Shown piece after piece: positions 20,391-53,625 of a stretch of DNA of 53,660 nucleotides. Position numbers and translations under genes: made by a program. The stretch lies in the IMG/VR virus record IMGVR_UViG_3300045988_124798, positions 1-53,660 of that record. The stretch is one strand, 5' to 3'. Position 1 is the stretch's first letter. Each line of letters begins with the position of its first letter. Origin of the DNA: a virus. The notes under the pieces were generated by a model that saw only the letters and a program-made list of their open reading frames with translations, made no database searches and was not told where the DNA came from.

Positions 20391-20670
20391 CTACACCAAT
20401 CTTACACCACTACACCAATTTTACACCAATTTTCTGAAAGTTATTCATTGGTTTTGAAAAGTTATTCAATGTTTATAATTTTCGTATGAATTGCTTGAAA
20501 CCATTGAAAATAAAGTTATTCAAGAGTTTTTAAAGTTATAACAAGATATTTGATTGTGATTAAAAAATCATCTCTTTAATTACCTCAAAAAAGGAGTACA
20601 TCTCTAAAAATCCTTTATTTATCAATAAAACTTTACTCTTGTATTTTATTTTACACCATTTACTACACCA
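20391..20670. repeat. attP-type arm repeats: six TACACCA(AT) and four AAGTTAT(TCA) direct repeats next to int
   Basis: TACACCA at 20392, 20403, 20411, 20422, 20652 and 20664. AAGTTATTCA at 20438, 20459 and 20513, and AAGTTATA at 20533. All are in the same orientation. Confidence 0.55.
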
Positions 20671-21787
20671 ATTTCAAATTTTCCTCTATCATTTCCATTT
20701 CTTCCATCTTGGAATCTTCGGTAACATGAACATACAAATTCATCGTCATTTCGATTTTGCTATGTCCCAGAATTGCTTGAAGAGTTTTCGGACGCATACC
20801 GTTTTCAATGCACCTTGTAGCGAATGTGTGCCTCAATAAATGTATTGAAAAACGCCGTATTCCTGCCCTATCGCACGCCGCGTATATCCCCTTGTTGTAT
20901 GCGTATTTTGGAATTGGAAAGCCTTTTGAATTGACAAAGATGTAATCTGTATATTGAATTGGGACAATTTTGTTTTGGCTGTTCTTTTCTTTCTGCCGTT
21001 TCAATATTTCGATTGCTTCTTTTGTAAGCGGTATTTCTCTTTTTCCGCTCTCTGTTTTTGTATTTCCGAATACAAACCCCCGCCCATCTATCCATGCCGC
21101 ACTTCTTTCTACTCTCATTTTCCTGTTTTCAAAATCAATATCAGACCACTTTAAGGCGGTGAGTTCGCCAACTCTAAGACCTGTTTGCAAAACAAAAGAT
21201 AACCCATTGTAGTAAACGTACCGACTCGATTCTTGCAGAAATAGTTTCTGTTCCTCCAATGTAAGAGCCTGCTTTCCTGCCGTTCTTTCTCCTCCTGCTA
21301 CTTTTGTTCTTTCGACAGGGTTCTTTTGGATGAAATCATTTTCAACAGCACACTCGAAAACAGACCACATCAAAGCCCTGTACGTCTTAATAGTGCTGCT
21401 CTTATGATTTGCGGCTAAATCGTTTAATATTTTTTGACAATGGATGGGTTTTACGTCTTTTAATTCCATGTCTCCTATCGCTGAATAAGCTGAATTTTTC
21501 CATTGGTTTTCGTAGTTATTTTTTGTTGAAATTCTAATTCCATTCCCCTTTACTTCTTCGAGCCAATACTCAAACCACGCATTGACCGTTGGAGAATCAG
21601 AAAAGAAAACATCCCCATGCTCATCCTCAAATTGTGCATCTGCCATCCACGCTCGACACTCCTGCAACTTATGAAAGTATTTTTGTTTTCGCTTTCCAGA
21701 CTTCGTTGTAAATCTCCCTGTATACATTCCGTCTTTTCGTTGGCTGATACCAACGCCTAATTCTTTTCCCTTAAGGTCTTTCCCCAT
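20663..21787 (-). CDS. int: Tyrosine integrase
   Basis: The N-terminus MGKDLKGKELGVGISQRKDG is typical of Firmicutes phage/ICE integrases. HLLRHTFAT and LGHSKIEMTMNLYVHV are catalytic motifs. ATG at 21787 preferred over 21823. Confidence 0.9.
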   Translation of the reverse strand: MGKDLKGKELGVGISQRKDGMYTGRFTTKSGKRKQKYFHKLQECRAWMADAQFEDEHGDVFFSDSPTVNAWFEYWLEEVKGNGIRISTKNNYENQWKNSAYSAIGDMELKDVKPIHCQKILNDLAANHKSSTIKTYRALMWSVFECAVENDFIQKNPVERTKVAGGERTAGKQALTLEEQKLFLQESSRYVYYNGLSFVLQTGLRVGELTALKWSDIDFENRKMRVERSAAWIDGRGFVFGNTKTESGKREIPLTKEAIEILKRQKEKNSQNKIVPIQYTDYIFVNSKGFPIPKYAYNKGIYAACDRAGIRRFSIHLLRHTFATRCIENGMRPKTLQAILGHSKIEMTMNLYVHVTEDSKMEEMEMIEENLKLV

Positions 21788-21813
21788 TCTATTACACTCC
21801 TTTCGATTTGAGA

Positions 21814-21851
21814 AAAGCCCCATACAGTTTCATACTACCATACGGGGCTTT
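21814..21851 (-). terminator. Hairpin between the xis-like gene and int
   Basis: aaagcccc / ggggcttt 8-bp stem with a 22-nt loop, followed on the minus strand by tct. Weak U-tract. Confidence 0.3.
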
Positions 21852-28986: not shown

Positions 28987-29230
28987 AATTTCCTCTCTTT
29001 CTTTCCGCTCTGCGCTTTTGCAGATAATCTTTTCTCCTATAATCTGCTTGCCGTTCTATGTATACCTTCTTTTGAATCTCCCTTTTGTTTTTCTTATGAT
29101 TTTCGCTCCAAGCGCCAAATTTTTCGCAGGAAGGATGACATTCGGCAGTCCTTTCTTCGCACTGATAGCAAGGACAAATGCCATCCTTTCCTTTAATGTC
29201 TGCGTTCAAACAAAAACAAACCTTACCCAT
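28979..29230 (-). CDS. Small Cys-rich basic protein
   Basis: 83 aa, C.C....C.C..C....C...C followed by a K/R-rich tail. Confidence 0.4.
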   Translation of the reverse strand: MGKVCFCLNADIKGKDGICPCYQCEERTAECHPSCEKFGAWSENHKKNKREIQKKVYIERQADYRRKDYLQKRRAERKRGNYE

Positions 29231-29942
29231 TCCTTAACCACCACCCATCATTACGTTCTGCAACGTACACATTCGCCGCAGGACACGCTTTTTTCATGCG
29301 CTCGATGAATTTATCGGAATCGGCATTATCGGCTGACAAATGGCACATTATGACATTGTGCAAGTTGTCCGAATTATTCGCCTTTACAAACTCGCAAGCT
29401 GTATCAATCTCCAAGTGACCTCCGAAAATATGATTCTTTTTCCCTTCGTTATCGGGATAAATCATATCCTTGTCATAATTCACGCCAAGGAGAATGTGGT
29501 TGATATTTTTGAACCGCCATTTGACAACGGCTGCATCCGTTATATAAATCATTCTCCCCATTTCCTTGTTTTCAATAAGGAAACCATAACAAGGGCATTC
29601 CGTTCCGTCTGCATCTGTGTGTGTCCATCTGCCATCAATCGTTGTAAGGTCAAATGCCTGTATTTTGAATCCAGAATACTTTTTTACAAAAGTTTCTGTA
29701 TTTTCATACGGCTTGAAAACAGGTATCCCCATTCGTTCAAAATCCTTGACCGATTTTGAGTGGTCGGCGTGTTTATGCGTAACAATTGCACCGATAACAT
29801 CGGAAATTTTCCACCCGATTCCCTTCTTAATCTTCTTTTCGTTCTCCCCCAAGTCCAAAAGAAGAATCTCTCCTGTGTCTGCAATTAGTGCATGGCAATT
29901 TCCGCTTGAACCTGTTGCTATCGTTTTTAACAGCACTTTCAC
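29223..29942 (-). CDS. MBL-fold metallo-hydrolase
   Basis: THKHADH (HxHxDH) motif. GTG start after AGGAGG. Typical partner of phage recombination modules. Confidence 0.75.
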   Translation of the reverse strand: MKVLLKTIATGSSGNCHALIADTGEILLLDLGENEKKIKKGIGWKISDVIGAIVTHKHADHSKSVKDFERMGIPVFKPYENTETFVKKYSGFKIQAFDLTTIDGRWTHTDADGTECPCYGFLIENKEMGRMIYITDAAVVKWRFKNINHILLGVNYDKDMIYPDNEGKKNHIFGGHLEIDTACEFVKANNSDNLHNVIMCHLSADNADSDKFIERMKKACPAANVYVAERNDGWWLRNG

Positions 29943-43386: not shown

Positions 43387-43477
43387 GTTCAAAACCTCGC
43401 TTTCGTTTCGTGTAGTCTGCCATCGTCAGAGCCGGGAGACTATCCCACGGCTGACGGTCATTTCTGACCGTTTCGGC

Positions 43478-43639
43478 TCAATCCTCAAAAATTATTTCTG
43501 TAAATTCCTTCGGTGTAACAGATTCAATTGCAACATTTTCGTTTTTCAAATCCGCAAATCTTTTGGCGTTGCTATATTTTTTAAAAAATTTAACGCCATT
43601 AAATCCATAGTTTAAAAATACGATGTGAACCTTTACCAT
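43478..43639 (-). CDS. Small protein (53 aa), first gene of the leftward envelope-island operon
   Basis: Strong RBS GAAGGAGGAA. MVKVHIVFLNYGFNGVKFFKKYSNAKRFADLKNENVAIESVTPKEFTEIIFED. Confidence 0.45.
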   Translation of the reverse strand: MVKVHIVFLNYGFNGVKFFKKYSNAKRFADLKNENVAIESVTPKEFTEIIFED

Positions 43640-46088: not shown

Positions 46089-46331
46089 ATGTTTTCTTTA
46101 AATCCGTTTAGAAGAATTAAGGATTTAGAATTTGAGATTGAATCGAAAGACCGTAAAATCGAAGACCTGAGAAATGTGATTGATAGATTAGAATCTCCTA
46201 CAAAGCCAAAGTATCATCCAAATGCAACCTGTACTGACTGCGAATATTGCATTGTTGAGGAGCAGATACACTATAAAGGCTATTATTGCAGACTCAATAA
46301 TAACTGCGAAGATTACACTTTGAAAGAATGA
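46089..46331 (+). CDS. Hypothetical (coiled coil plus Cys cluster)
   Basis: 80 aa. RBS AAAGGAGTG. ...CTDCEYC......YYCRLNNNCEDY. Confidence 0.45.
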   Translation: MFSLNPFRRIKDLEFEIESKDRKIEDLRNVIDRLESPTKPKYHPNATCTDCEYCIVEEQIHYKGYYCRLNNNCEDYTLKE

Positions 46332-46348
46332 GTGGGCGGTGACTGAAA

Positions 46349-46498
46349 ATGTACGATGAAAAAGAATGTTGTGCTAAGTGCAGATATGCCAGTGTAGACC
46401 GTGAGTTGCTTTTTACTTGCAATAACGAGAATAGCGACTATTACACTGATTATACGGAATATGATTATGGCTGCGATTATTTTGAGCAAAAGGAGTGA
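46349..46498 (+). CDS. Small Cys/Tyr/Asp-rich ORF (49 aa)
   Basis: MYDEKECCAKCRYASVDRELLFTCNNENSDYYTDYTEYDYGCDYFEQKE. Below the track cutoff. Confidence 0.35.
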   Translation: MYDEKECCAKCRYASVDRELLFTCNNENSDYYTDYTEYDYGCDYFEQKE

Positions 46499-46503
46499 AC
46501 GGT

Positions 46504-46734
46504 ATGAGAATTTTAAGTCAAGATAGAACGGCTTCCGTTGATGAAAGCGGAGTATCGCTGTTGGTTTCTGAAAATTATGTTGCAGCTGTTTTTCCTATCC
46601 AAGAAGTTGGTTTTGTACGTCTTGGAAAATACAGGAGCAAAGAGCGAGCAATGGAAGTTCTTGAGGATATTCATGCTATGTATGAAGAACTCCCCTTCTC
46701 TGGCAACACAGTTTTCCGCATGCCGATGGAATAA
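46504..46734 (+). CDS. Hypothetical, paralog of the 30370-30651 product
   Basis: ATG after AAGGAGTG. MRILSQDRTAS...GKYRSKERAMEVLEDIHAMYEE...VFRMPME. Confidence 0.45.
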   Translation: MRILSQDRTASVDESGVSLLVSENYVAAVFPIQEVGFVRLGKYRSKERAMEVLEDIHAMYEELPFSGNTVFRMPME

Positions 46735-46858
46735 ACACCGATATGCACCCTGTTTGTTGCGCTTGCCTTTGAGTGGTTTAGTTCATGACTGTACGGCGAT
46801 TATGGCAAGAAACAAGGCGGCTATAGACGCTGATTTTCGGACGCAGGGTCTTATATAT

Positions 46859-46930
46859 GCACCAGTAGTTTAATGGCGAGAACGTCAGACTTCCAATCTA
46901 ACGGCGTGGGTTCGATTCCCATCTGGTGCT
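46859..46930 (+). tRNA. tRNA-Gly (anticodon UCC), probable
   Basis: Manual cloverleaf: acceptor gcaccag/ctggtgc, D gttt/gaac, anticodon arm tcaga-cttccaa-tctaa (one C.A mismatch), T gtggg-ttcgatt-cccat, discriminator U. Confidence 0.7.
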
Positions 46931-47109
46931 TTTCATCGGGTTTGGACATTTTCCCGATGGATAACACGACCTTTCACCCACTAGGGGAATCCTGTTAAGA
47001 GCCATCGCACGGCTCGGTGGGATTTTGGCTTGCATGCCGATGGAGCCGGCAGCAAGACCAAACACTAACTTCATATTTGGGGCGTTTTAACGGCATTGCG
47101 CCCCATTCC

Positions 47110-47183
47110 GGATTCTTAGCTCAGCTGGTCAGAGCATCCGGCTCATAACCGGACGGTCCTCGGTTCAAGTCCGAGAGAATCCA
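47110..47183 (+). tRNA. tRNA with CAU anticodon (elongator Met or Ile2)
   Basis: ggattct ta gctc agctggtca gagc a tccgg ctcataa ccgga cggtc ctcgg ttcaagt ccgag agaatcc a. All stems are perfect. Confidence 0.9.
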
Positions 47184-47410
47184 TTTGCGGTCTTTCGGTA
47201 TCGTGGGTTATCGCGCCCATTGATTTTGCTGACTGACCGCGCCCCATACAAATTTTTATCCCCTTCTTGTCAGTCCGTTTTTCTGGTTTCGTGACTGACG
47301 TTAAACTCAAAACTGAAAAATCATGATGGGGATTGGATAGAAACTTGATTTAGGTGAGGTCGATTCGGATTTCACTATTAGAGATGGTGTCTTTTAGGTC
47401 CCCATCCTCT

Positions 47411-47502
47411 GCCAACATACCGAAACGGCTATAACGGCGTGGTCTTGAAAACCATTGTGTCGGTTAGAATCCGACATGGGGGTTCAAATCCCTCTGTTGG
47501 CG
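47411..47502 (+). tRNA. tRNA-Ser (anticodon UGA), long variable arm
   Basis: Acceptor gccaaca/tgttggc, anticodon arm gtggt-cttgaaa-accat, variable stem gtcgg..ccgac, T-loop ttcaaat. Confidence 0.8.
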
Positions 47503-47661
47503 ATTGGGTTCACGATAAAAGCCCAGTGCGCAACCTTATGGGTTAAAATCGTTGTAAAAATGCGTGGTCGAAAGCAGTCTTTTAGGTCTGCGATAAAGCG
47601 GACCGGTCTCGAGTTATTAGCCTGTGAGTAGACATGGCATAATTCAAAATTGAATTATGGT

Positions 47662-47784
47662 AGATGGTGGCGGAATAGGTATACGCTTGGAGTTCCCATT
47701 ATGAATAATAATGCCAAGAAAGCACTCCCAACGGGACACAGGGAGATAGGTCTTTCATGCGTGGTGCAAATCCACGCCCATCTA
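47662..47784 (+). ncRNA. tRNA-like element with an oversized central insert (uncertain)
   Basis: agatggt...cccatct acceptor-like pairing, D-like gcg-gaataggtata-cgc, T-like cgtgg-tgcaaat-ccacg, but about 70 nt where the anticodon arm should be. Confidence 0.25.
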
Positions 47785-47847
47785 AGAGGTCTGGTAGCAC
47801 CAGAATAGAGTGTTGGTTGCATGAATCCCACTTGAATTAAAAAAATG

Positions 47848-47886
47848 CCGATAAGCAGATTGGTTGTTGCCTTTTCTGCTTATCGG
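47848..47886 (-). terminator. 11-bp hairpin that reads as a terminator only on the minus strand
   Basis: ccgataagcag / ctgcttatcgg. On the minus strand it is followed by cattttttt. Confidence 0.5.
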
Positions 47887-47935
47887 AGGATGCACAGTTT
47901 ATTCAGATTTTTTTATAAAAAAGGCGGTGTTTGCA

Positions 47936-48205
47936 ATGGCGAAAGGCGTAAAAACCATAAACAAGAGAAAATTTTTTGAAGCGTTTGAGGATTTTTGTAG
48001 CGGTCGCATAACGCTGTCCAAAGCTGCAAGACATATCGGCATTAGCGTCCCTACTGCATCAAAATATTTCAATATGCACATAAAGGGAGAGCCGTTTCCA
48101 GATACACTGTTCGGGGATGAAAAACGTCAGAATGAACTTGAACAGTTCGAGAAATTCAGCTCTGATTTAAGAAAAGTATATGACCGCAGACTATTCGGCA
48201 AGTGA
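47936..48205 (+). CDS. Small HTH protein
   Basis: 89 aa. ...GRITLSKAARHIGISVPTASKYF.... Confidence 0.5.
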   Translation: MAKGVKTINKRKFFEAFEDFCSGRITLSKAARHIGISVPTASKYFNMHIKGEPFPDTLFGDEKRQNELEQFEKFSSDLRKVYDRRLFGK

Positions 48206-49807: not shown

Positions 49808-49911
49808 AAACAATTACCGACTAACAACTTGGAAGTTAGCCGCTAACCCTAAACATCTGAGGGCAAAGGATTTTTGCACCTTTGCTTATTTGAGCGGAGG
49901 TGCTTTTTTTA

Positions 49912-51654
49912 ATGGCAAGTTTTGAATTGATGAGTGCCGTACAGGAATACGAAGAATATATAAAAACAAATGGAATCGATGAGCGAGTTATTGATGCGTA
50001 TTGCGAAGCTGTCAAAACCGCTGTTGTAAACGAGAAGGATATTGAGTACGGGCTTAAAATCTCAAAAAGGTGTAAGGAAATCATTGAAACATTTTGTATT
50101 ACTACTTCTGGCGGTACAATTTGGGATTTGGAAAAATACTCCTTCAAAGAAAAAGTAAGCTATGAAATTATAGAGAAATTTTATTCCATCTTGCTTATAG
50201 AGGCACAGAATAAGGTTGTTGATAGTTTCTTTCGGTATATCGAACACAAAAGAGAGCCGAAAGAACGATTTTATATGCCGAGAAGAAAACAGTTTTTGAA
50301 AATCGGTCTGATGGATGCACTGCAAGGGATGATTGATGATAAGTATGATATTTTGTGCATCAGTCTAATTCCTGGCGCTGGGAAAACAACTATCGAGAAA
50401 TTCTTTAATGCGGCGGTCATTGGTTGGTTTCCGAAAGATTTTAACCTCTTTTATTCTCATAGTGGGGATATTACGAGGATGTACTACGATGGCGTATACG
50501 ATATTGTCACAAATGTGGACGATTACGCATGGAACGAGATATTTCCAAACCTACACGTTACCGGCACAAATGCAAAGACAGAACAATTCAATGTCGGGAA
50601 GTATAAGCCGTTCCCTTCTGTACAATGCACATCCGTAGGAAGTAAAAATGCCGGTAAGGTAAGAGCATCGAAGTTTCTTCTGGTTGACGATATGATAGGC
50701 GGCATTGAGGAGGCTATGAATCCAATTATCCTTGATAAGCTATGGAATAAATACTCAGTTGATGCGAGACAGAGAAAAATACAGGATTCCGAAGGTAAAA
50801 ACTGCAAGGAAATACATATTGCTACACGATGGTCTGTACATGATGTTATCGGACGTATCCAAAATATGTACGTAGGAAATCCGAGGGTTAAAACAATAGC
50901 GGTACCTGATATCGACCCGATTACGCAAGAAAGCAATTTCGATTATGAATTTTCTGGGTTCACAAAAGAATTTTTTGAGGACCAGCAGCTATTAATGGAC
51001 GATATTTCGTACCGCTGCCTGTATAAGCAGGAACCCATTGAGCGTGAGGGGTTGGTTTTCCCCGAAGATAAGATACGAAGATACCTAAATCTCCCACATG
51101 GCGAGCCGGAAATTATTACTGCACAGTGCGACACAAAAGGAAAAGGAACGGACTATTTTGTTCTGCCAATCCTGCAAAAATACGGAGATGACTATTACTG
51201 CGTTGATTGCGTTTGCGATAATACTGCGGACTATGAAATGCAGTATGAAAATGCTGCTAACGCTTTGGCGAATAACAAAGTGCAGGAGTGCGAATTTGAG
51301 CGAAACGCAGGCGGAGATAGGGTTGCTATGGAAGTGAATAAGCGTGTAGAGGCTAAAGGTTGGATTTGCAATATTACAGATACGCCCACCGAAACGAACA
51401 AAGAAGCAAGAATCTTCCAGTGTTCCAACTGGATATTGCAGCACGTTATTTTCAAGGACGAATCCATGTATTCCCCAAAAGAGCCTTACGGAGTAATGAT
51501 GTCACTTTTGAAACGATATTCTGTAAGCAGCAAGAAACAGTTTGATGACGTTCCAGACGTTTTTTCCAACTTTGCGGTAAGAATCACAAAGGGAAACAGG
51601 ATTGCGAAGGTAGAGGCAACCAGAAATCCGTTTAGAGGAGGCGTATATTATTGA
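49912..51654 (+). CDS. terL: Terminase large subunit
   Basis: ATG at 49912 lies 10 nt after GGAGGTG. Walker A-like SLIPGAGKTT, Walker B LLVDDMIGG, C-terminal nuclease-size domain. Confidence 0.85.
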   Translation: MASFELMSAVQEYEEYIKTNGIDERVIDAYCEAVKTAVVNEKDIEYGLKISKRCKEIIETFCITTSGGTIWDLEKYSFKEKVSYEIIEKFYSILLIEAQNKVVDSFFRYIEHKREPKERFYMPRRKQFLKIGLMDALQGMIDDKYDILCISLIPGAGKTTIEKFFNAAVIGWFPKDFNLFYSHSGDITRMYYDGVYDIVTNVDDYAWNEIFPNLHVTGTNAKTEQFNVGKYKPFPSVQCTSVGSKNAGKVRASKFLLVDDMIGGIEEAMNPIILDKLWNKYSVDARQRKIQDSEGKNCKEIHIATRWSVHDVIGRIQNMYVGNPRVKTIAVPDIDPITQESNFDYEFSGFTKEFFEDQQLLMDDISYRCLYKQEPIEREGLVFPEDKIRRYLNLPHGEPEIITAQCDTKGKGTDYFVLPILQKYGDDYYCVDCVCDNTADYEMQYENAANALANNKVQECEFERNAGGDRVAMEVNKRVEAKGWICNITDTPTETNKEARIFQCSNWILQHVIFKDESMYSPKEPYGVMMSLLKRYSVSSKKQFDDVPDVFSNFAVRITKGNRIAKVEATRNPFRGGVYY

Positions 51655-52117: not shown

Positions 52118-52144
52118 TATAATAAAGAAATATGCAAGCAGACG

Positions 52145-52181
52145 AACACCGATTTTTGTCGGTGTTTTTTGTTTTGTTTTT
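52145..52181 (+). terminator. Rho-independent terminator between the sigma-like gene and portal
   Basis: aacaccga-tttttg-tcggtgtt followed by ttttgttttgtttttt. Confidence 0.7.
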
Positions 52182-52197
52182 TATCGGGAGGTGCCGT

Positions 52198-53625
52198 ATG
52201 AATAATAGAATGACGTTTCAAGAGATTGTTCGCGGACAGTATGGAAGAAAAATTGCATACACGAATGTTGATAAAATAACGCCGGATAACATTGTTAGCG
52301 TTGTCGGGGGATGTATAGGCGTTTTCAATGCAAACAAAACAGCCATTGAATACCTTTGGAATTACTACAAGGGAGACCAGCCGATACGTTATCGCAAAAA
52401 GATTGTCCGAGAGGATATCGTAAATAAGGTCGTTGAAAACCACGCATACGAAATCGTACAGTTCAAGGTCGGTCAGACCTACGGCGAGCCTGTGCAGTTT
52501 GTTAGCCGCAAGGATGATGAGCGGATAAACAAGGCTGTAGATATTCTGAATGATTACATGGTGGATGTTGATAAACAGTCAAAGGATATTAAGTCTGGAG
52601 AATGGCAGTCGGCAACGGGCACATCATTTAAGGCTGCGCAGTTTTCGGATGGAGATATTAAATTTCGCATTGTATCCCCCACTCCACTGAACACGTTTGT
52701 GATTTATAACGCAAACACAGAAGAGCCGATTTTAGCGGTGCAGGAATCGAAGGACAGGAACGGAAAAATGTATAAGCGGTGCTTTACGGGCACACATTCT
52801 TGCAAAATATATGATTCTACTGTTACGGATTGGGAACTTCATGCTTTCGGTGGTATACCGATTATTGAATACCCGAATAACCATGAAAGACTTTCGGATA
52901 TTGAGCTTGTTATTGACATTCTGGATTCCATTAACAATATGCAATCAAACCGCATGGATTCCATTGAACAGTTTGTGCAATCGTGGATAAAATTTGTAAA
53001 CTGCGATATTGATTCGGAAGAATTTGAAAAAATGAAAATGCAGGGCGCATTGGTTGTTAAGTCGAACAATGGCGAAAACAAAGCGGATGTCGATATTATG
53101 ACACAGGAATTGAACCAGACGGAATCACAGGTCGCAAAGGATGACCTGTGGGACAACGCCCTTTCCATTCTCGCCATTCCGAATAAAAACAACAATAACT
53201 CTGGCGGAGATACGCAGGGGGCGGTGCAGCTTCGTAATGGTTGGGATTTCTCCAAGACGAGAGCGAAACTGAAAGACCCCATTGTAAAATCGGCAGAGAA
53301 ACGCCTTGCAAAAGTTGTGCTGAATATCATACGCATTAAGCATGAAGATTTAGGCATTACCACAAGGGATTTTGATGTGCAGATAAACCATAGTCCGCAG
53401 GACAATATGTATACAAAATCACAGACACTTTATCAGCTGTTGCAGGCAGGAATACACCCTCTTATCGCAGTTAAGACAGTTGGTCTGTGGGGAGATTCTG
53501 AAAAAACATTCCTTCTTTCTAAGCCTTATATGGATGCTTTGTGGCAGACAGCAGAAGAAAAGGAAGAACAGGAGCGTAAGGCAGCGGAGATTGTGAAACA
53601 GTCTCAAGCGGTTGCAAAAGAATAA
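52198..53625 (+). CDS. Portal protein (SPP1 Gp6-like)
   Basis: ATG at 52198 after GGGAGGTG. About 475 aa. ...AIEYLWNYYKGDQPIRYRKKIVREDIVNKVVENHAYEIVQFKVGQTYGEP is a typical Gp6-like N-terminal region. Confidence 0.85.
   Translation: MNNRMTFQEIVRGQYGRKIAYTNVDKITPDNIVSVVGGCIGVFNANKTAIEYLWNYYKGDQPIRYRKKIVREDIVNKVVENHAYEIVQFKVGQTYGEPVQFVSRKDDERINKAVDILNDYMVDVDKQSKDIKSGEWQSATGTSFKAAQFSDGDIKFRIVSPTPLNTFVIYNANTEEPILAVQESKDRNGKMYKRCFTGTHSCKIYDSTVTDWELHAFGGIPIIEYPNNHERLSDIELVIDILDSINNMQSNRMDSIEQFVQSWIKFVNCDIDSEEFEKMKMQGALVVKSNNGENKADVDIMTQELNQTESQVAKDDLWDNALSILAIPNKNNNNSGGDTQGAVQLRNGWDFSKTRAKLKDPIVKSAEKRLAKVVLNIIRIKHEDLGITTRDFDVQINHSPQDNMYTKSQTLYQLLQAGIHPLIAVKTVGLWGDSEKTFLLSKPYMDALWQTAEEKEEQERKAAEIVKQSQAVAKE

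What the first reader, a model, noticed from the sequence alone, without database searches (positions are those of the whole stretch)
46735..47935. 1.2-kb ORF-free, GC-elevated, hairpin-dense block: three tRNAs plus about 750 nt of unexplained structured RNA
Only 238 nt of this block are accounted for by tRNA-Gly(UCC), tRNA(CAU) and tRNA-Ser(UGA). The spacers (46931-47109, 47184-47410, 47503-47847) are full of perfect stems. Examples are catcggg/cccgatg, ggggcg/cgcccc, gatgggga/tccccatc enclosing about 60 nt, cataattca/tgaattatg, cattat/ataatg nested in cttgg/ccaag, and ctggt/accag. An exact 12-mer GTCTTTTAGGTC recurs at 47389 and 47576, and AGATGGTG...CCCATC recurs at 47382-47405 and 47662-47783. 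Large ornate ncRNAs of prophages (the ROOL and GOLLD classes) are known to sit beside or around tRNA genes, so such an RNA, or a new one, is a realistic possibility. I cannot recognise either consensus from memory. The tRNAs themselves may compensate codon usage or counter anticodon-nuclease defences.
Basis: partly seen in the sequence, partly recalled or inferred. Interest (0 to 1): 0.65.

Follow-up and report, generated by a model that had tools for sequence, protein, structure and literature searches.

The report
Phage tRNA array hiding tRNA-like RNAs
The 1.2-kb gene-free block is not one giant ornate RNA: it is a prophage tRNA operon of modular units holding three normal tRNAs plus two conserved, unannotated tRNA-like RNAs, a 57-nt three-way junction and a 125-nt tRNA shell with an exchangeable middle, whose function is unknown.

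Summary
The block has three tRNAs, no credible ORF, raised GC, and spacers that fold better than shuffles (z -4.5, -4.3, -2.4).

The ROOL/GOLLD idea fails. Rfam 15 gives only tRNA hits, even at E<=10 on isolated pieces. In 18 close relatives the spacers gain and lose whole modules independently.

Two real structured RNAs sit in the spacers.
1. 46970-47022(+) is a three-way junction with a (Y)CCUUUC leader and an invariant UAG...CUG-UUAAG core. It is present in most of this phage family's arrays, on the tRNA strand, in more than 119 viral contigs and in Lachnospiraceae/Bacillota genomes. Eleven of 16 pairs show compensatory changes.
2. 47661-47785(+) is a tRNA-like gene that ARAGORN and Rfam miss. 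It has a 7-bp acceptor stem, U8-G9, a tRNA-Leu-type D-arm, a 6-bp T-stem and a UGCAAAU T-loop (G at position 55). It has no usable anticodon arm. The shell covaries across about 19 acceptor-stem types, while its 45-120-nt interior is swapped, even between close relatives.

Every unit is followed by a hairpin.

Best reading: a CCA-less tRNA operon that also yields non-decoding tRNA mimics. Function and processing are inferred, not shown.

The parts
46859..46930 (+). tRNA-Gly(UCC); no CCA encoded
   Evidence: ARAGORN. Rfam tRNA, 64.2 bits.
46934..46959 (+). Trailer hairpin directly after tRNA-Gly (CATCGGG / CCCGATG)
   Evidence: MFE fold. One pair changes G-C to U-A in L003 and L004. A hairpin at this position, with a different sequence, follows the preceding tRNA in distant relatives.
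46970..47022 (+). Conserved three-way-junction RNA motif. Leader CCUUUC 46970-46975. Pa 46977-46981 with 47017-47021. Pb UAGG-GGAAU-CCUG 46982-46994. Junction UUAA 46995-46998. Pc GAGCC-AUCGCAC-GGCUC 46999-47015. G 47016.
   Evidence: CM R1 scores 74.1 bits at 46966-47028. Covariation: 93.5% paired on A1 and 92.8% on A2; on A2, 11 of 16 pairs have two-sided changes, 0/500 shuffles reach the score, and slid controls pair at 35-42%. More than 119 viral contigs carry it. Invariant U.G and frequent G.U pairs fix the strand as +. No Rfam match.
47024..47061 (+). Long hairpin after the junction motif
   Evidence: MFE and alifold. Variation within the clade is one-sided only (C-G to U-G or U-A), so structure is likely but unproven. 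Sequences downstream of the motif are more structured than random windows.
47078..47105 (+). Hairpin UGGGGCG / CGCCCCA just upstream of tRNA(CAU)
   Evidence: MFE. Invariant within the clade, so there is no covariation test.
47110..47183 (+). tRNA with anticodon CAU (elongator Met or Ile2); no CCA encoded
   Evidence: ARAGORN. Rfam, 70.7 bits. About 80% identical to tRNAs annotated Met or Ile in phages of Bacillus, Enterococcus and Latilactobacillus.
47186..47241 (+). Branched trailer hairpin after tRNA(CAU) (GCGGUC...GACCGC)
   Evidence: MFE, z -4.26 for the whole spacer.
47269..47298 (+). Hairpin GUCAGUCC...GUGACUGAC
   Evidence: MFE. Found only in the close clade.
47326..47407 (+). 80-nt long hairpin that is a clean presence/absence module. 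Its 3' half (AGAUGGUG-UCUUUUAGGUC-CCCAUC) looks like an internally deleted copy of the tRNA-like gene at 47661-47785.
   Evidence: Absent in L002, L004, L006, L008, L017 and L018; present in the others. Repeats D4 and D8 link it to 47649-47669 and 47577-47588. Its status as a relic is inferred.
47410..47503 (+). tRNA-Ser(UGA), type II; no CCA encoded
   Evidence: ARAGORN. Rfam, 49.1 bits.
47505..47525 (+). Trailer hairpin after tRNA-Ser
   Evidence: MFE. Relatives keep a hairpin here with different pairs: UGGG..CCCA against AGGGUU..AACCUU (alignment).
47555..47660 (+). Clade-specific spacer with hairpins at 47585-47604 and 47638-47659, and a fragment (AUGCGUGGUCGAAA) resembling the 5' half of the T-arm of the tRNA-like gene
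   Evidence: Repeats D7 and D8. nhmmer finds it only in the close clade. No covariation is available.
47661..47785 (+). Cryptic tRNA-like gene. Acceptor UAGAUGG / CCAUCUA, U8 G9, D-arm GCG-GAAUAGGUAUA-CGC, interior ('cargo') 47687-47757, T-arm GCGUGG-UGCAAAU-CCACGC, discriminator A.
   Evidence: Found by nhmmer in about 60 relatives at 98-157 nt. A structure scan finds about 19 acceptor-stem types. Shell covariation: 94.7% paired, 12 of 16 pairs with two-sided changes, 0/500 shuffles. The interior is replaced wholesale in L003, L005-L011 and L014-L016, with compensatory C-G to U-A in the T-stem. Not called by ARAGORN or Rfam.
47791..47803 (+). Trailer hairpin after the tRNA-like gene (CUGGU-AGC-ACCAG)
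   Evidence: MFE. In other phage groups the same position holds CCGGU...ACCGG.
47804..47850 (+). Nearly invariant block AAUAGAGUGUUGGUUGCAUGAAUCCCACUUGAAUUAAAAAAAUGCCG that travels with the tRNA-like gene
   Evidence: Alignment A3 with L092, L174, L023 and L165, where it also follows a tRNA-like shell and precedes tRNA-Glu. nhmmer hits.
47848..47886 (+). Perfect 12-bp hairpin CCGAUAAGCAGA / UCUGCUUAUCGG closing the array. Read on the minus strand it is a hairpin followed by a T-run, i.e. terminator-like.
   Evidence: Inverted repeat I3. MFE. A hairpin with partly different sequence sits at the same place in L092 and L174.

Best explanation
The block is the tRNA operon of a temperate phage of Lachnospiraceae/Bacillota. 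The phage carries an integrase, an antirepressor and RecT, and the block lies just upstream of the terminase and portal genes. The operon is a string of independent units, each followed within a few bases by a hairpin, and none encodes CCA.

Three units are ordinary tRNAs: Gly-UCC, CAU and Ser-UGA. Two more are tRNA mimics that cannot decode.
- The first is a 57-nt three-way junction. Its closing stem, its 4-bp UAGN/NCUG arm and its 5-bp arm with a 7-nt loop resemble acceptor stem, D-arm and T-arm with no anticodon arm.
- The second is a 125-nt RNA with a tRNA-Leu-type acceptor/D/T shell. It has a 13-bp acceptor-plus-T stack and G55. The anticodon and variable region is replaced by a 70-nt cargo that phages exchange as a cassette.

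The rest of the spacers is trailer hairpins and relics of earlier copies of such genes.

Inferred, not shown: the whole array is transcribed on the + strand. The host tRNA-processing enzymes RNase P, RNase Z and the CCA-adding enzyme then cut out the mimics together with the tRNAs. The mimics act through the tRNA-like shell, either as decoys or competitors for host factors that bind tRNA, or as a stable scaffold presenting a variable cargo.
For: **Shown**
- Three tRNAs.
- Phage context: TerL, portal, integrase, ANT, RecT.
- No Rfam family other than tRNA in the block.
- No similarity of the spacers to any of 50,697 GenBank phage records.
- Modular gain and loss of spacer segments among 18 relatives.

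**Junction motif**
- 16 pairs, 92.8% paired across 42 distinct sequences.
- 11 pairs carry compensatory changes; 0/500 shuffles reach the score; slid controls pair at 35-42%.
- Hits in 56 of the 63 sources searched, i.e. 55 of 62 family loci plus the window itself; 51 score at least 35 bits and five score 19.8-22.8.
- Always on the tRNA strand, usually 40-70 nt after a tRNA.
- True hits in Roseburia, Bariatricus, Lachnospiraceae and Bacillota genome contigs.

**tRNA-like shell**
- Acceptor and T stems covary: 12 of 16 pairs two-sided, 94.7% paired.
- U8 and G9 are invariant, and the G18G19-type GG of the D-loop is nearly so; the T-loop is UGCAAAU or UUCAAAU.
- The interior is swapped between close relatives while the shell is kept.
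- Interiors differ in sequence and length, about 45-120 nt.

**Other**
- The 40 nt after tRNAs, shells and junction motifs fold better than random windows (mean MFE -6.9, -6.7 and -9.0 against -4.4 kcal/mol; p from 2e-4 to 2e-21).
- Repeats D4, D7 and D8 link 47369-47400 and 47560-47588 to the shell gene.
Against: - There are no expression, processing or aminoacylation data. Transcription, RNase P/Z cleavage and any decoy role are inference.
- The shell set was collected with a filter that required most stem pairs. The percentage paired is therefore partly built in. The variety of pair types is not, and the same classes came out of a sequence-only nhmmer search.
- The '7/6' register rests on two invariant pairs (U1-A72 and the outer G-C of the T-stem), not on covariation.
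- The D-arm/T-arm reading of the junction motif is a resemblance. Its second loop class (ACGNU with GCGAG) lacks the G18G19/U55C56-like bases.
- Most other hairpins in the block never vary within the clade, which says nothing either way.
Confidence: 0.55

Rival explanations
1. All non-tRNA sequence here is debris: decaying tRNA pseudogenes and recombination scars left by turnover of tRNA cassettes, with no function of its own.
For: - Fragments of the shell gene occur in the spacers (repeats D4, D7, D8).
- Modules come and go among close relatives.
- Most clade-specific hairpins show no covariation.
- Relatives hold many aberrant 'tRNAs'.
Against: - Debris should decay evenly. Instead the junction motif and the shell keep their stems through compensatory changes across phages whose TerL is only 83% identical, and across other phage groups.
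- Junction bases (UAG, CUG, UUAAG) and U8, G9 and the T-loop are invariant.
- The shell stays intact while the interior is replaced.

This rival probably holds for 47326-47407 and 47555-47660, but not for the two conserved units.
Confidence: 0.15
2. One large ornate RNA (ROOL or GOLLD class, or a new one) spans the block and carries the tRNAs inside it.
For: - The block is ORF-free, GC-rich and highly structured.
- ROOL and GOLLD are known to sit next to tRNAs in prophages (established knowledge).
- The junction motif and the AAUCCCAC block are adjacent in some phages but 800 nt apart here, with tRNAs in between.
Against: - No ROOL or GOLLD match, even at E<=10.
- Segments of 80-160 nt are individually present or absent in near-identical phages.
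- Only two short units are conserved outside the clade.
- No long-range pairing stands out beyond chance-level 9-mers.
Confidence: 0.04
3. The three-way junction is a new small self-cleaving ribozyme, or a cis-acting processing or antitermination element of the operon, rather than a tRNA mimic. On this reading it would trim the neighbouring tRNA or let RNA polymerase read through the many hairpins into the late genes.
For: - Its junction core is invariant (UAG/CUG-UUAAG-G) and its leader is conserved, as in catalytic or polymerase-binding RNAs.
- It holds a fixed place early in the array, after the first tRNA and upstream of the terminase operon.
- Theta ribozymes show that gut phages do place ribozymes next to tRNAs (PMC10879173).
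Against: - It matches no Rfam ribozyme family.
- It lies 40-70 nt from the tRNA end, not within 5 nt as theta ribozymes do.
- No HDV-like nested double pseudoknot can be drawn. The best parse is broken by substitutions in L004, and the stem covaries as a plain hairpin.
- There is no hammerhead core.
Confidence: 0.15
4. The 125-nt element is a real decoding tRNA interrupted by a small intron or insertion that is removed after transcription.
For: - Many interiors start with a short stem followed by U-AAG-R or U-GAG-A, i.e. Leu anticodons with U33 and a purine at 37. The extra sequence begins about where canonical introns sit.
- After an artificial G55-to-U repair, some deletion variants are called Leu-AAG (L003 class, type B) or Gly-CCC (window class).
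Against: - No single deletion makes the window element callable as a tRNA.
- ARAGORN's intron mode finds nothing.
- Ghost anticodons differ between classes that share one shell.
- The interiors are far too short for group I introns, and Rfam finds none.
- Bacteria lack the splicing endonuclease for 37/38 introns (established knowledge).
- No RNA ligase or endonuclease was seen among 20 phage proteins scanned.
- G55 and the 13-bp stack depart from all elongator tRNAs.
Confidence: 0.08

Closest known systems
Phage T4 stable RNAs RNAC and RNAD (species 1 and 2), encoded in the T4 tRNA region
   Same: They are small stable non-tRNA RNAs encoded with a phage tRNA cluster. Their function is still called unknown (PMC9697503). 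From memory, they have tRNA-like termini and mature with the tRNAs.
   Different: There is no sequence relation. The host phylum differs. The RNAs here have a full acceptor/D/T shell or a three-way junction. Processing here is untested.
Canonical type II tRNA (bacterial tRNA-Leu)
   Same: The 125-nt element has a 7-bp acceptor stem, U8-G9, a D-arm GCG-GAAUNGGUAGA-CGC, a long region before the T-arm, and discriminator A in the window copy.
   Different: It has no 5-bp/7-nt anticodon arm. The T-stem is 6 bp, giving a 13-bp acceptor branch instead of 12; 13 bp is otherwise known only for tRNA-Sec (PMC5389517). It has G at position 55 instead of U. The interior is 45-120 nt and interchangeable. 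ARAGORN and the Rfam tRNA model do not call it.
tRNA-like domains of non-coding RNAs: bacterial Y-RNA-like YrlA (PMC4201824), viral tRNA-like structures, and engineered tRNA scaffolds that carry a cargo in place of the anticodon arm (the last from memory)
   Same: They retain the acceptor/T/D 'elbow' part of tRNA while the anticodon part is replaced by something else.
   Different: There is no Rfam match to Y RNA or any tRNA-like family. No Ro/Rsr gene was found among the 30 window proteins scanned; the window's other ORFs were not scanned. The cargo sits inside a complete cloverleaf-type shell.
Theta (minimal HDV-like) ribozymes next to tRNAs in gut phages (PMC10879173)
   Same: They are small structured RNAs embedded in gut-phage tRNA clusters.
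   Different: Theta ribozymes abut the tRNA (within 5 nt) and have the HDV double pseudoknot with a catalytic C. Nothing here fits that. This phage family appears to use the standard genetic code, since the window's terminase and portal ORFs are intact under table 11.
ROOL and GOLLD large ornate RNAs
   Same: Prophage location next to tRNAs; an ORF-free, structured region.
   Different: No covariance-model match. The elements here are short (57 and 125 nt), independent and modular, not one RNA of 500-800 nt.

Membership tests
ROOL (Rfam) / GOLLD (Rfam) | Match to the family covariance model | tested here: not met
   cmscan of the window at gathering score. Also run at E<=10 on 46300-48100, 47650-47860 and 46931-47109. 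No hit.
ROOL (Rfam) / GOLLD (Rfam) | One contiguous conserved RNA of about 500-800 nt | tested here: not met
   Modules of 80-160 nt are independently present or absent in relatives 83-98% identical. Only a 57-nt unit and a unit of about 190 nt are conserved outside the clade.
Canonical tRNA (for 47661-47785) | 7-bp acceptor stem, U8, D-arm with GG | tested here: met
   UAGAUGG/CCAUCUA, U8 G9, GCG-GAAUAGGUAUA-CGC. Six of 7 acceptor pairs covary.
Canonical tRNA (for 47661-47785) | 5-bp T-stem with T-loop U54-U55-C56-R57-A58, giving a 12-bp acceptor branch | tested here: not met
   The T-loop is UGCAAAU, with G at 55, in the window copy and in most classes (19 of 33 distinct shells in A4; 14 have UUCAAAU-type loops). 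The stem reads as 6 bp, so the branch is 13 bp. The register rests on invariant pairs.
Canonical tRNA (for 47661-47785) | 5-bp anticodon stem with a 7-nt loop (U33, purine 37) | tested here: not met
   The interior of 70 nt folds into two hairpins. ARAGORN, with or without intron mode, and Rfam do not call it. No single deletion rescues it.
Canonical tRNA (for 47661-47785) | Aminoacylation and use in translation | not testable with these tools
   Needs biochemistry.
HDV-like / theta ribozyme | Nested double pseudoknot (P1, P1.1, P2, P3, P4) with a catalytic C in J4/2, starting within about 5 nt of the tRNA end | tested here: not met
   My own descriptor scan of 46700-47950 gives only weak parses. 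The one next to tRNA-Gly is broken in L004, and the stem there covaries as a plain hairpin. No Rfam HDV-family hit.
Group I intron in a tRNA | Intron of at least about 200 nt with the P3-P9 core; Rfam Intron_gpI match | tested here: not met
   Interiors are 45-120 nt. No Rfam hit.
tmRNA | tRNA-like domain plus a tag reading frame | tested here: not met
   ARAGORN in tmRNA mode finds none in the window.
Phage tRNA-cluster stable RNAs (T4 RNAC/RNAD type) | Encoded within the phage tRNA cluster, on the same strand | tested here: met
   Both units lie between or after tRNAs on the + strand, here and in relatives.
Phage tRNA-cluster stable RNAs (T4 RNAC/RNAD type) | Accumulate as discrete stable RNAs matured by tRNA-processing enzymes | not testable with these tools
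   No transcript data.

The most novel reading that the evidence does not exclude
Lachnospiraceae phages encode two previously undescribed families of non-decoding tRNA mimics inside their tRNA operons. One is an anticodon-armless 'mini-tRNA' three-way junction. The other is a tRNA-Leu-derived scaffold with a 13-bp acceptor branch and G55, whose middle is a rapidly exchanged cargo. The host tRNA-processing machinery would release them, and they would act on host tRNA-binding factors such as defence nucleases, synthetases or T-box leaders. That would make them a natural counterpart of engineered tRNA scaffolds.
Probability: 0.3. Interest if true: 0.75.

Novelty: new variant of a known kind. Interest (0 to 1): 0.55.

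Why it matters
Phage tRNA clusters are usually annotated as tRNAs plus 'spacer'. In this family a large share of the spacer is conserved RNA that tRNA finders and Rfam miss. One motif recurs in well over a hundred gut-phage contigs. A whole set of tRNA-shaped genes also keeps the parts of tRNA that processing enzymes recognise, while discarding or swapping the decoding part.

If these RNAs are made and are stable, three things follow:
- tRNA mimicry by DNA phages would extend beyond spare or nuclease-resistant tRNAs.
- Two RNA families would be ready for covariance models.
- There would be a testable natural 'tRNA scaffold with cargo' in abundant human-gut phages.

For genome annotation, the result also shows that a hairpin-dense block next to tRNAs need not be a ROOL- or GOLLD-type RNA.

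Tried and rejected
- **Rfam.** Searched at gathering score and at E<=10 on the window, on 8 relatives and on isolated pieces. Only tRNAs and an unrelated hammerhead came up.
- **ARAGORN.** Run with introns and lowered thresholds. Only implausible calls at 80% threshold.
- **GenBank phages.** blastn against GenBank phage records matched only the tRNA segments.
- **HDV-like ribozyme.** Descriptor scan found no credible candidate.
- **Hidden intron.** Exhaustive single-deletion scan, with and without 'repairing' G55, recovered no consistent canonical tRNA.
- **Antisense targets.** Searched the phage genome for complements of the cargo, the junction motif and the spacers. Only chance-level matches of 11-15 nt.
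- **Covariation within the close clade.** Too little divergence for the remaining hairpins.
- **Loop-loop pairing in the junction motif.** Considered and not claimed. The AAGUU loop variant keeps the same partner loop.
- **A minus-strand gene using GAAAGG as ribosome site.** Rejected. There are no consistent start codons, and the G.U pairs are only valid on the + strand.
- **Genome-wide pattern scan.** Mostly chance matches. Only 10 of the first 100 loci pass the covariance model.
- **Literature.** Searches found no description of these elements.
Full report
**1. What the window is**

The window is a phage genome of about 53.7 kb.
- Large terminase lies at 49900-51654 and portal at 52132-53625.
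- A tyrosine integrase (20663-21823, minus strand), a KilAC/Bro antirepressor, RecT and a C5 methylase mark it as temperate.
- Eighty IMG/VR contigs, mostly from human-gut samples, encode a terminase 83-98% identical.
- The block 46735-47935 sits about 2 kb upstream of the terminase gene, between two small + strand genes.

**2. The observation**

- ARAGORN and Rfam agree on tRNA-Gly(UCC) 46859-46930, tRNA(CAU) 47110-47183 and tRNA-Ser(UGA) 47410-47503.
- There is no ORF above 58 aa.
- GC is 0.45-0.53 against 0.33-0.41 outside.
- The listed stems are all present. The 12-mer repeat is at 47389 and 47577.
- The three spacers fold better than dinucleotide shuffles: z -4.47, -4.26 and -2.41.

**3. 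Not ROOL, not GOLLD, not one large RNA**

Rfam 15 reports only the three tRNAs in the block. This holds at gathering score, and at E<=10 on the 1.8-kb region and on isolated pieces. Eight related loci likewise gave only tRNAs and a hammerhead elsewhere. GenBank phages share nothing with the block except the tRNAs.

Eighteen relatives (L001-L018) carry the block at 83-98% identity. Their alignment shows a mosaic:
- 47326-47404 is cleanly absent in six of them.
- 46933-47048 is absent in L017.
- L001 and L003 have about 160 extra bases after 47242.

Profile searches with each module find only two of them outside this clade. A single folded RNA of 750 nt would not tolerate that.

**4. Unit one: a three-way junction at 46970-47022**

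A stretch of about 57 nt was the only spacer sequence shared with more distant relatives.

The sequences fit this layout:
- leader (Y)CCUUUC
- stem Pa, 5-7 bp
- hairpin Pb: UAGN, a 5-nt loop, NCUG
- junction UUAA(G)
- hairpin Pc: 5 bp with a 7-nt loop, or 7 bp with GCGAG
- a single G
- Pa 3' strand, then U-rich sequence

Covariation supports this structure.
- On a hand-picked alignment, 93.5% of cells pair and 8 pairs have two-sided changes.
- A covariance model built from it (R1) collected 42 distinct sequences. Of these, 92.8% pair, 11 of 16 pairs have compensatory changes, no shuffle out of 500 reaches the score, and sliding the partners drops pairing to 35-42%.
- The alignment was fitted to the model, and some positions were fixed by the search pattern, so invariant columns carry no weight.
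- The covarying ones are clear: Pa as CCUCA/UGAGG, CCCCA/UGGGG, CCCAC/GUGGG, GCCAC/GUGGC and CCACAC/GUGUGG; the inner Pb pair as C-G, G-C, U-A and G.U; three Pc pairs.
- An invariant U.G and many G.U pairs are only legal on the + strand, the strand of the tRNAs.

Distribution:
- R1 gives hits in 56 of the 63 sources searched, i.e. 55 of 62 family loci plus the window's own copy. Fifty-one hits score at least 35 bits and five score 19.8-22.8.
- It always lies on the tRNA strand, usually 40-70 nt after a tRNA (Gln, Gly or Ile), with a non-conserved hairpin in between.
- In a scan of bacterial genomes most pattern matches were chance. The model confirms copies in Roseburia, Bariatricus, Lachnospiraceae and other Bacillota contigs, which names the host group.

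Resemblance to tRNA, as a lead and not a test:
- UAGC matches tRNA positions 8-11.
- The Pb loop GGAAU offers a G18G19-like pair of G.
- The Pc arm has T-arm dimensions with xUCRxAx.
- Together this looks like a tRNA without its anticodon arm.
- The second loop class lacks these bases, so I hold this loosely.

**5. Unit two: a cryptic tRNA-like gene at 47661-47785**

The element reads:
- UAGAUGG (positions 1-7), U8 G9
- GCG-GAAUAGGUAUA-CGC, the D-arm of bacterial tRNA-Leu (from established knowledge of tRNA-Leu)
- 70 nt of interior
- GCGUGG-UGCAAAU-CCACGC
- CCAUCUA, then A

A profile of this segment hits about 60 relatives, often twice per locus, with lengths of 98-157 nt. A structure-aware scan finds about 19 acceptor-stem types.

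Across 33 distinct shells:
- 6 of 7 acceptor pairs, all 3 D-stem pairs and 3 of 6 T-stem pairs show two-sided changes
- 94.7% of cells pair
- 0/500 shuffles reach the score

The scan demanded most pairs, so the percentage paired is partly built in. The same classes came from the sequence-only search.

Three features separate these genes from tRNAs:
- The T-loop has G where every elongator tRNA has U55. This holds in the window copy and most classes; a minority have UUCAAAU.
- The T-stem reads as 6 bp, giving a 13-bp acceptor branch, which is known only for tRNA-Sec (PMC5389517). The register depends on two invariant pairs.
- There is no 5-bp/7-nt anticodon arm.

The window interior folds into two hairpins. 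One of them (CUUGG/CCAAG) changes to CUGGG/CCCAG in L012.

Most tellingly, close relatives (L003, L005-L011, L014-L016) keep the shell but carry an unrelated interior. Their T-stem shows a compensatory C-G to U-A change. The interior therefore behaves as an exchangeable cargo.

Many interiors begin with a short stem and U-AAG-R or U-GAG-A, a ghost of a Leu anticodon loop. However:
- No single deletion yields a tRNA.
- Only after also changing G55 to U do inconsistent ghosts appear: Gly-CCC here, Leu-AAG in other classes.
- No splicing or ligase gene was seen among 20 proteins scanned.

I therefore read these as tRNA-Leu-derived, non-decoding RNAs.

**6. What travels with it**

After the shell comes a short hairpin (47791-47803). 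Then comes a nearly invariant block, AAUAGAGUGUUGGUNGCANGAAUCCCACUUGAAUUAAAAAAAUGCCG (47804-47850), and a long hairpin (47848-47886). The same series follows tRNA-like shells in other phage groups, where a tRNA-Glu comes next.

**7. The rest of the spacers**

Each tRNA, the junction motif and the shell are followed within a few bases by a hairpin: 46934-46959, 47186-47241, 47505-47525, 47024-47061 and 47791-47803. Across all loci, the 40 nt after tRNAs, shells and junction motifs fold better than random windows, with mean MFE -6.9, -6.7 and -9.0 against -4.4 kcal/mol. That control does not correct for GC or relatedness.

Two of these hairpins keep pairing with changed bases.

I read the 80-nt indel module and part of 47555-47660 as relics of earlier copies. 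That is an inference.

**8. Mechanism**

Shown: the anatomy, conservation, covariation, strand and context.

Inferred:
- The array is one or several + strand transcripts of CCA-less units.
- RNase P, RNase Z and the CCA-adding enzyme release the mimics with the tRNAs, because the mimics keep exactly the acceptor/T/D parts those enzymes read.
- The mimics then either compete for host factors that bind tRNA, or use the shell as a stable scaffold for a fast-changing cargo.

Cassette exchange of the cargo fits an arms-race role but does not prove it. No antisense target lies in the phage itself.

**9. Comparison with known systems**

- The nearest known parallel is the pair of stable RNAs of unknown function in the phage T4 tRNA region (PMC9697503; their tRNA-like maturation is from memory).
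- Theta ribozymes (PMC10879173), ROOL and GOLLD, tmRNA and intron-bearing tRNAs were tested and do not fit.
- YrlA-type Y RNAs share the principle of a tRNA-like domain (PMC4201824) but not the sequence or the context.

**10. Verdict**

- The ROOL/GOLLD reading is wrong.
- The block is a modular phage tRNA operon that also holds two well-supported, apparently undescribed tRNA-related RNA families, plus relics and trailer hairpins.
- Function is open.

Noticed in passing
window 43411-43478 (-): Type II hammerhead ribozyme, 55 bits against a gathering score of 37. It lies in the divergent region between leftward and rightward genes. The same family sits at matching places in relatives: L019 1162-1227, L024 1369-1436 and L080 669-738, all minus strand.
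   Followed up: partly
L022 2684-2773 and 3221-3309; L024 5220-5308: Further aberrant 'tRNAs' of 89-90 nt. They share the acceptor stem CGGAACG of a normal tRNA-Ile(UAU) but have broken anticodon arms. This suggests that loss or replacement of the decoding part is a general habit of this phage family.
   Followed up: partly
L024 5790-5887 (15 copies in the family): A 98-nt class (UCGUGGA...UCCACGA) folds as an almost normal long-variable-arm cloverleaf with a standard UUCAAGU T-loop. ARAGORN and Rfam still miss it. It again has a 6-bp T-stem.
   Followed up: partly
L062 3802-3946: A tRNA-like shell whose cargo contains a second, canonical T-arm (GGGUUCGAUUCCC), i.e. a tRNA fragment nested inside a tRNA-like gene.
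   Followed up: no
L264 1750-1809 and 1830-1895 (Bacillota MAG): Two copies of the three-way-junction motif in tandem, 20 nt apart.
   Followed up: no
window 46970-46975 and homologous leaders: The conserved single-stranded leader (Y)CCUUUC is the exact complement of a GAAAGG Shine-Dalgarno sequence. It also resembles the 3' tail of Bacillota 16S rRNA (from memory). Whether it binds ribosome-binding sites is untested.
   Followed up: no
window 29223-29942 (-): Protein with a metallo-beta-lactamase fold (Pfam Lactamase_B_2, E 2.6e-6), the fold of RNase Z and RNase J. It lies in the RecT/replication module, so it may equally be a DNA-recombination nuclease.
   Followed up: no
window 47848-47886 with the A-run 47839-47846: Read on the minus strand, this is a perfect 12-bp hairpin followed by TTTTTTT, a textbook intrinsic terminator. 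It faces a region with no minus-strand gene upstream, and it is conserved in other phage groups.
   Followed up: partly
window 47110-47183: The CAU tRNA is about 80% identical to tRNAs annotated either Met or Ile in Firmicute phages. It may be a lysidine-dependent tRNA-Ile2 rather than tRNA-Met.
   Followed up: no
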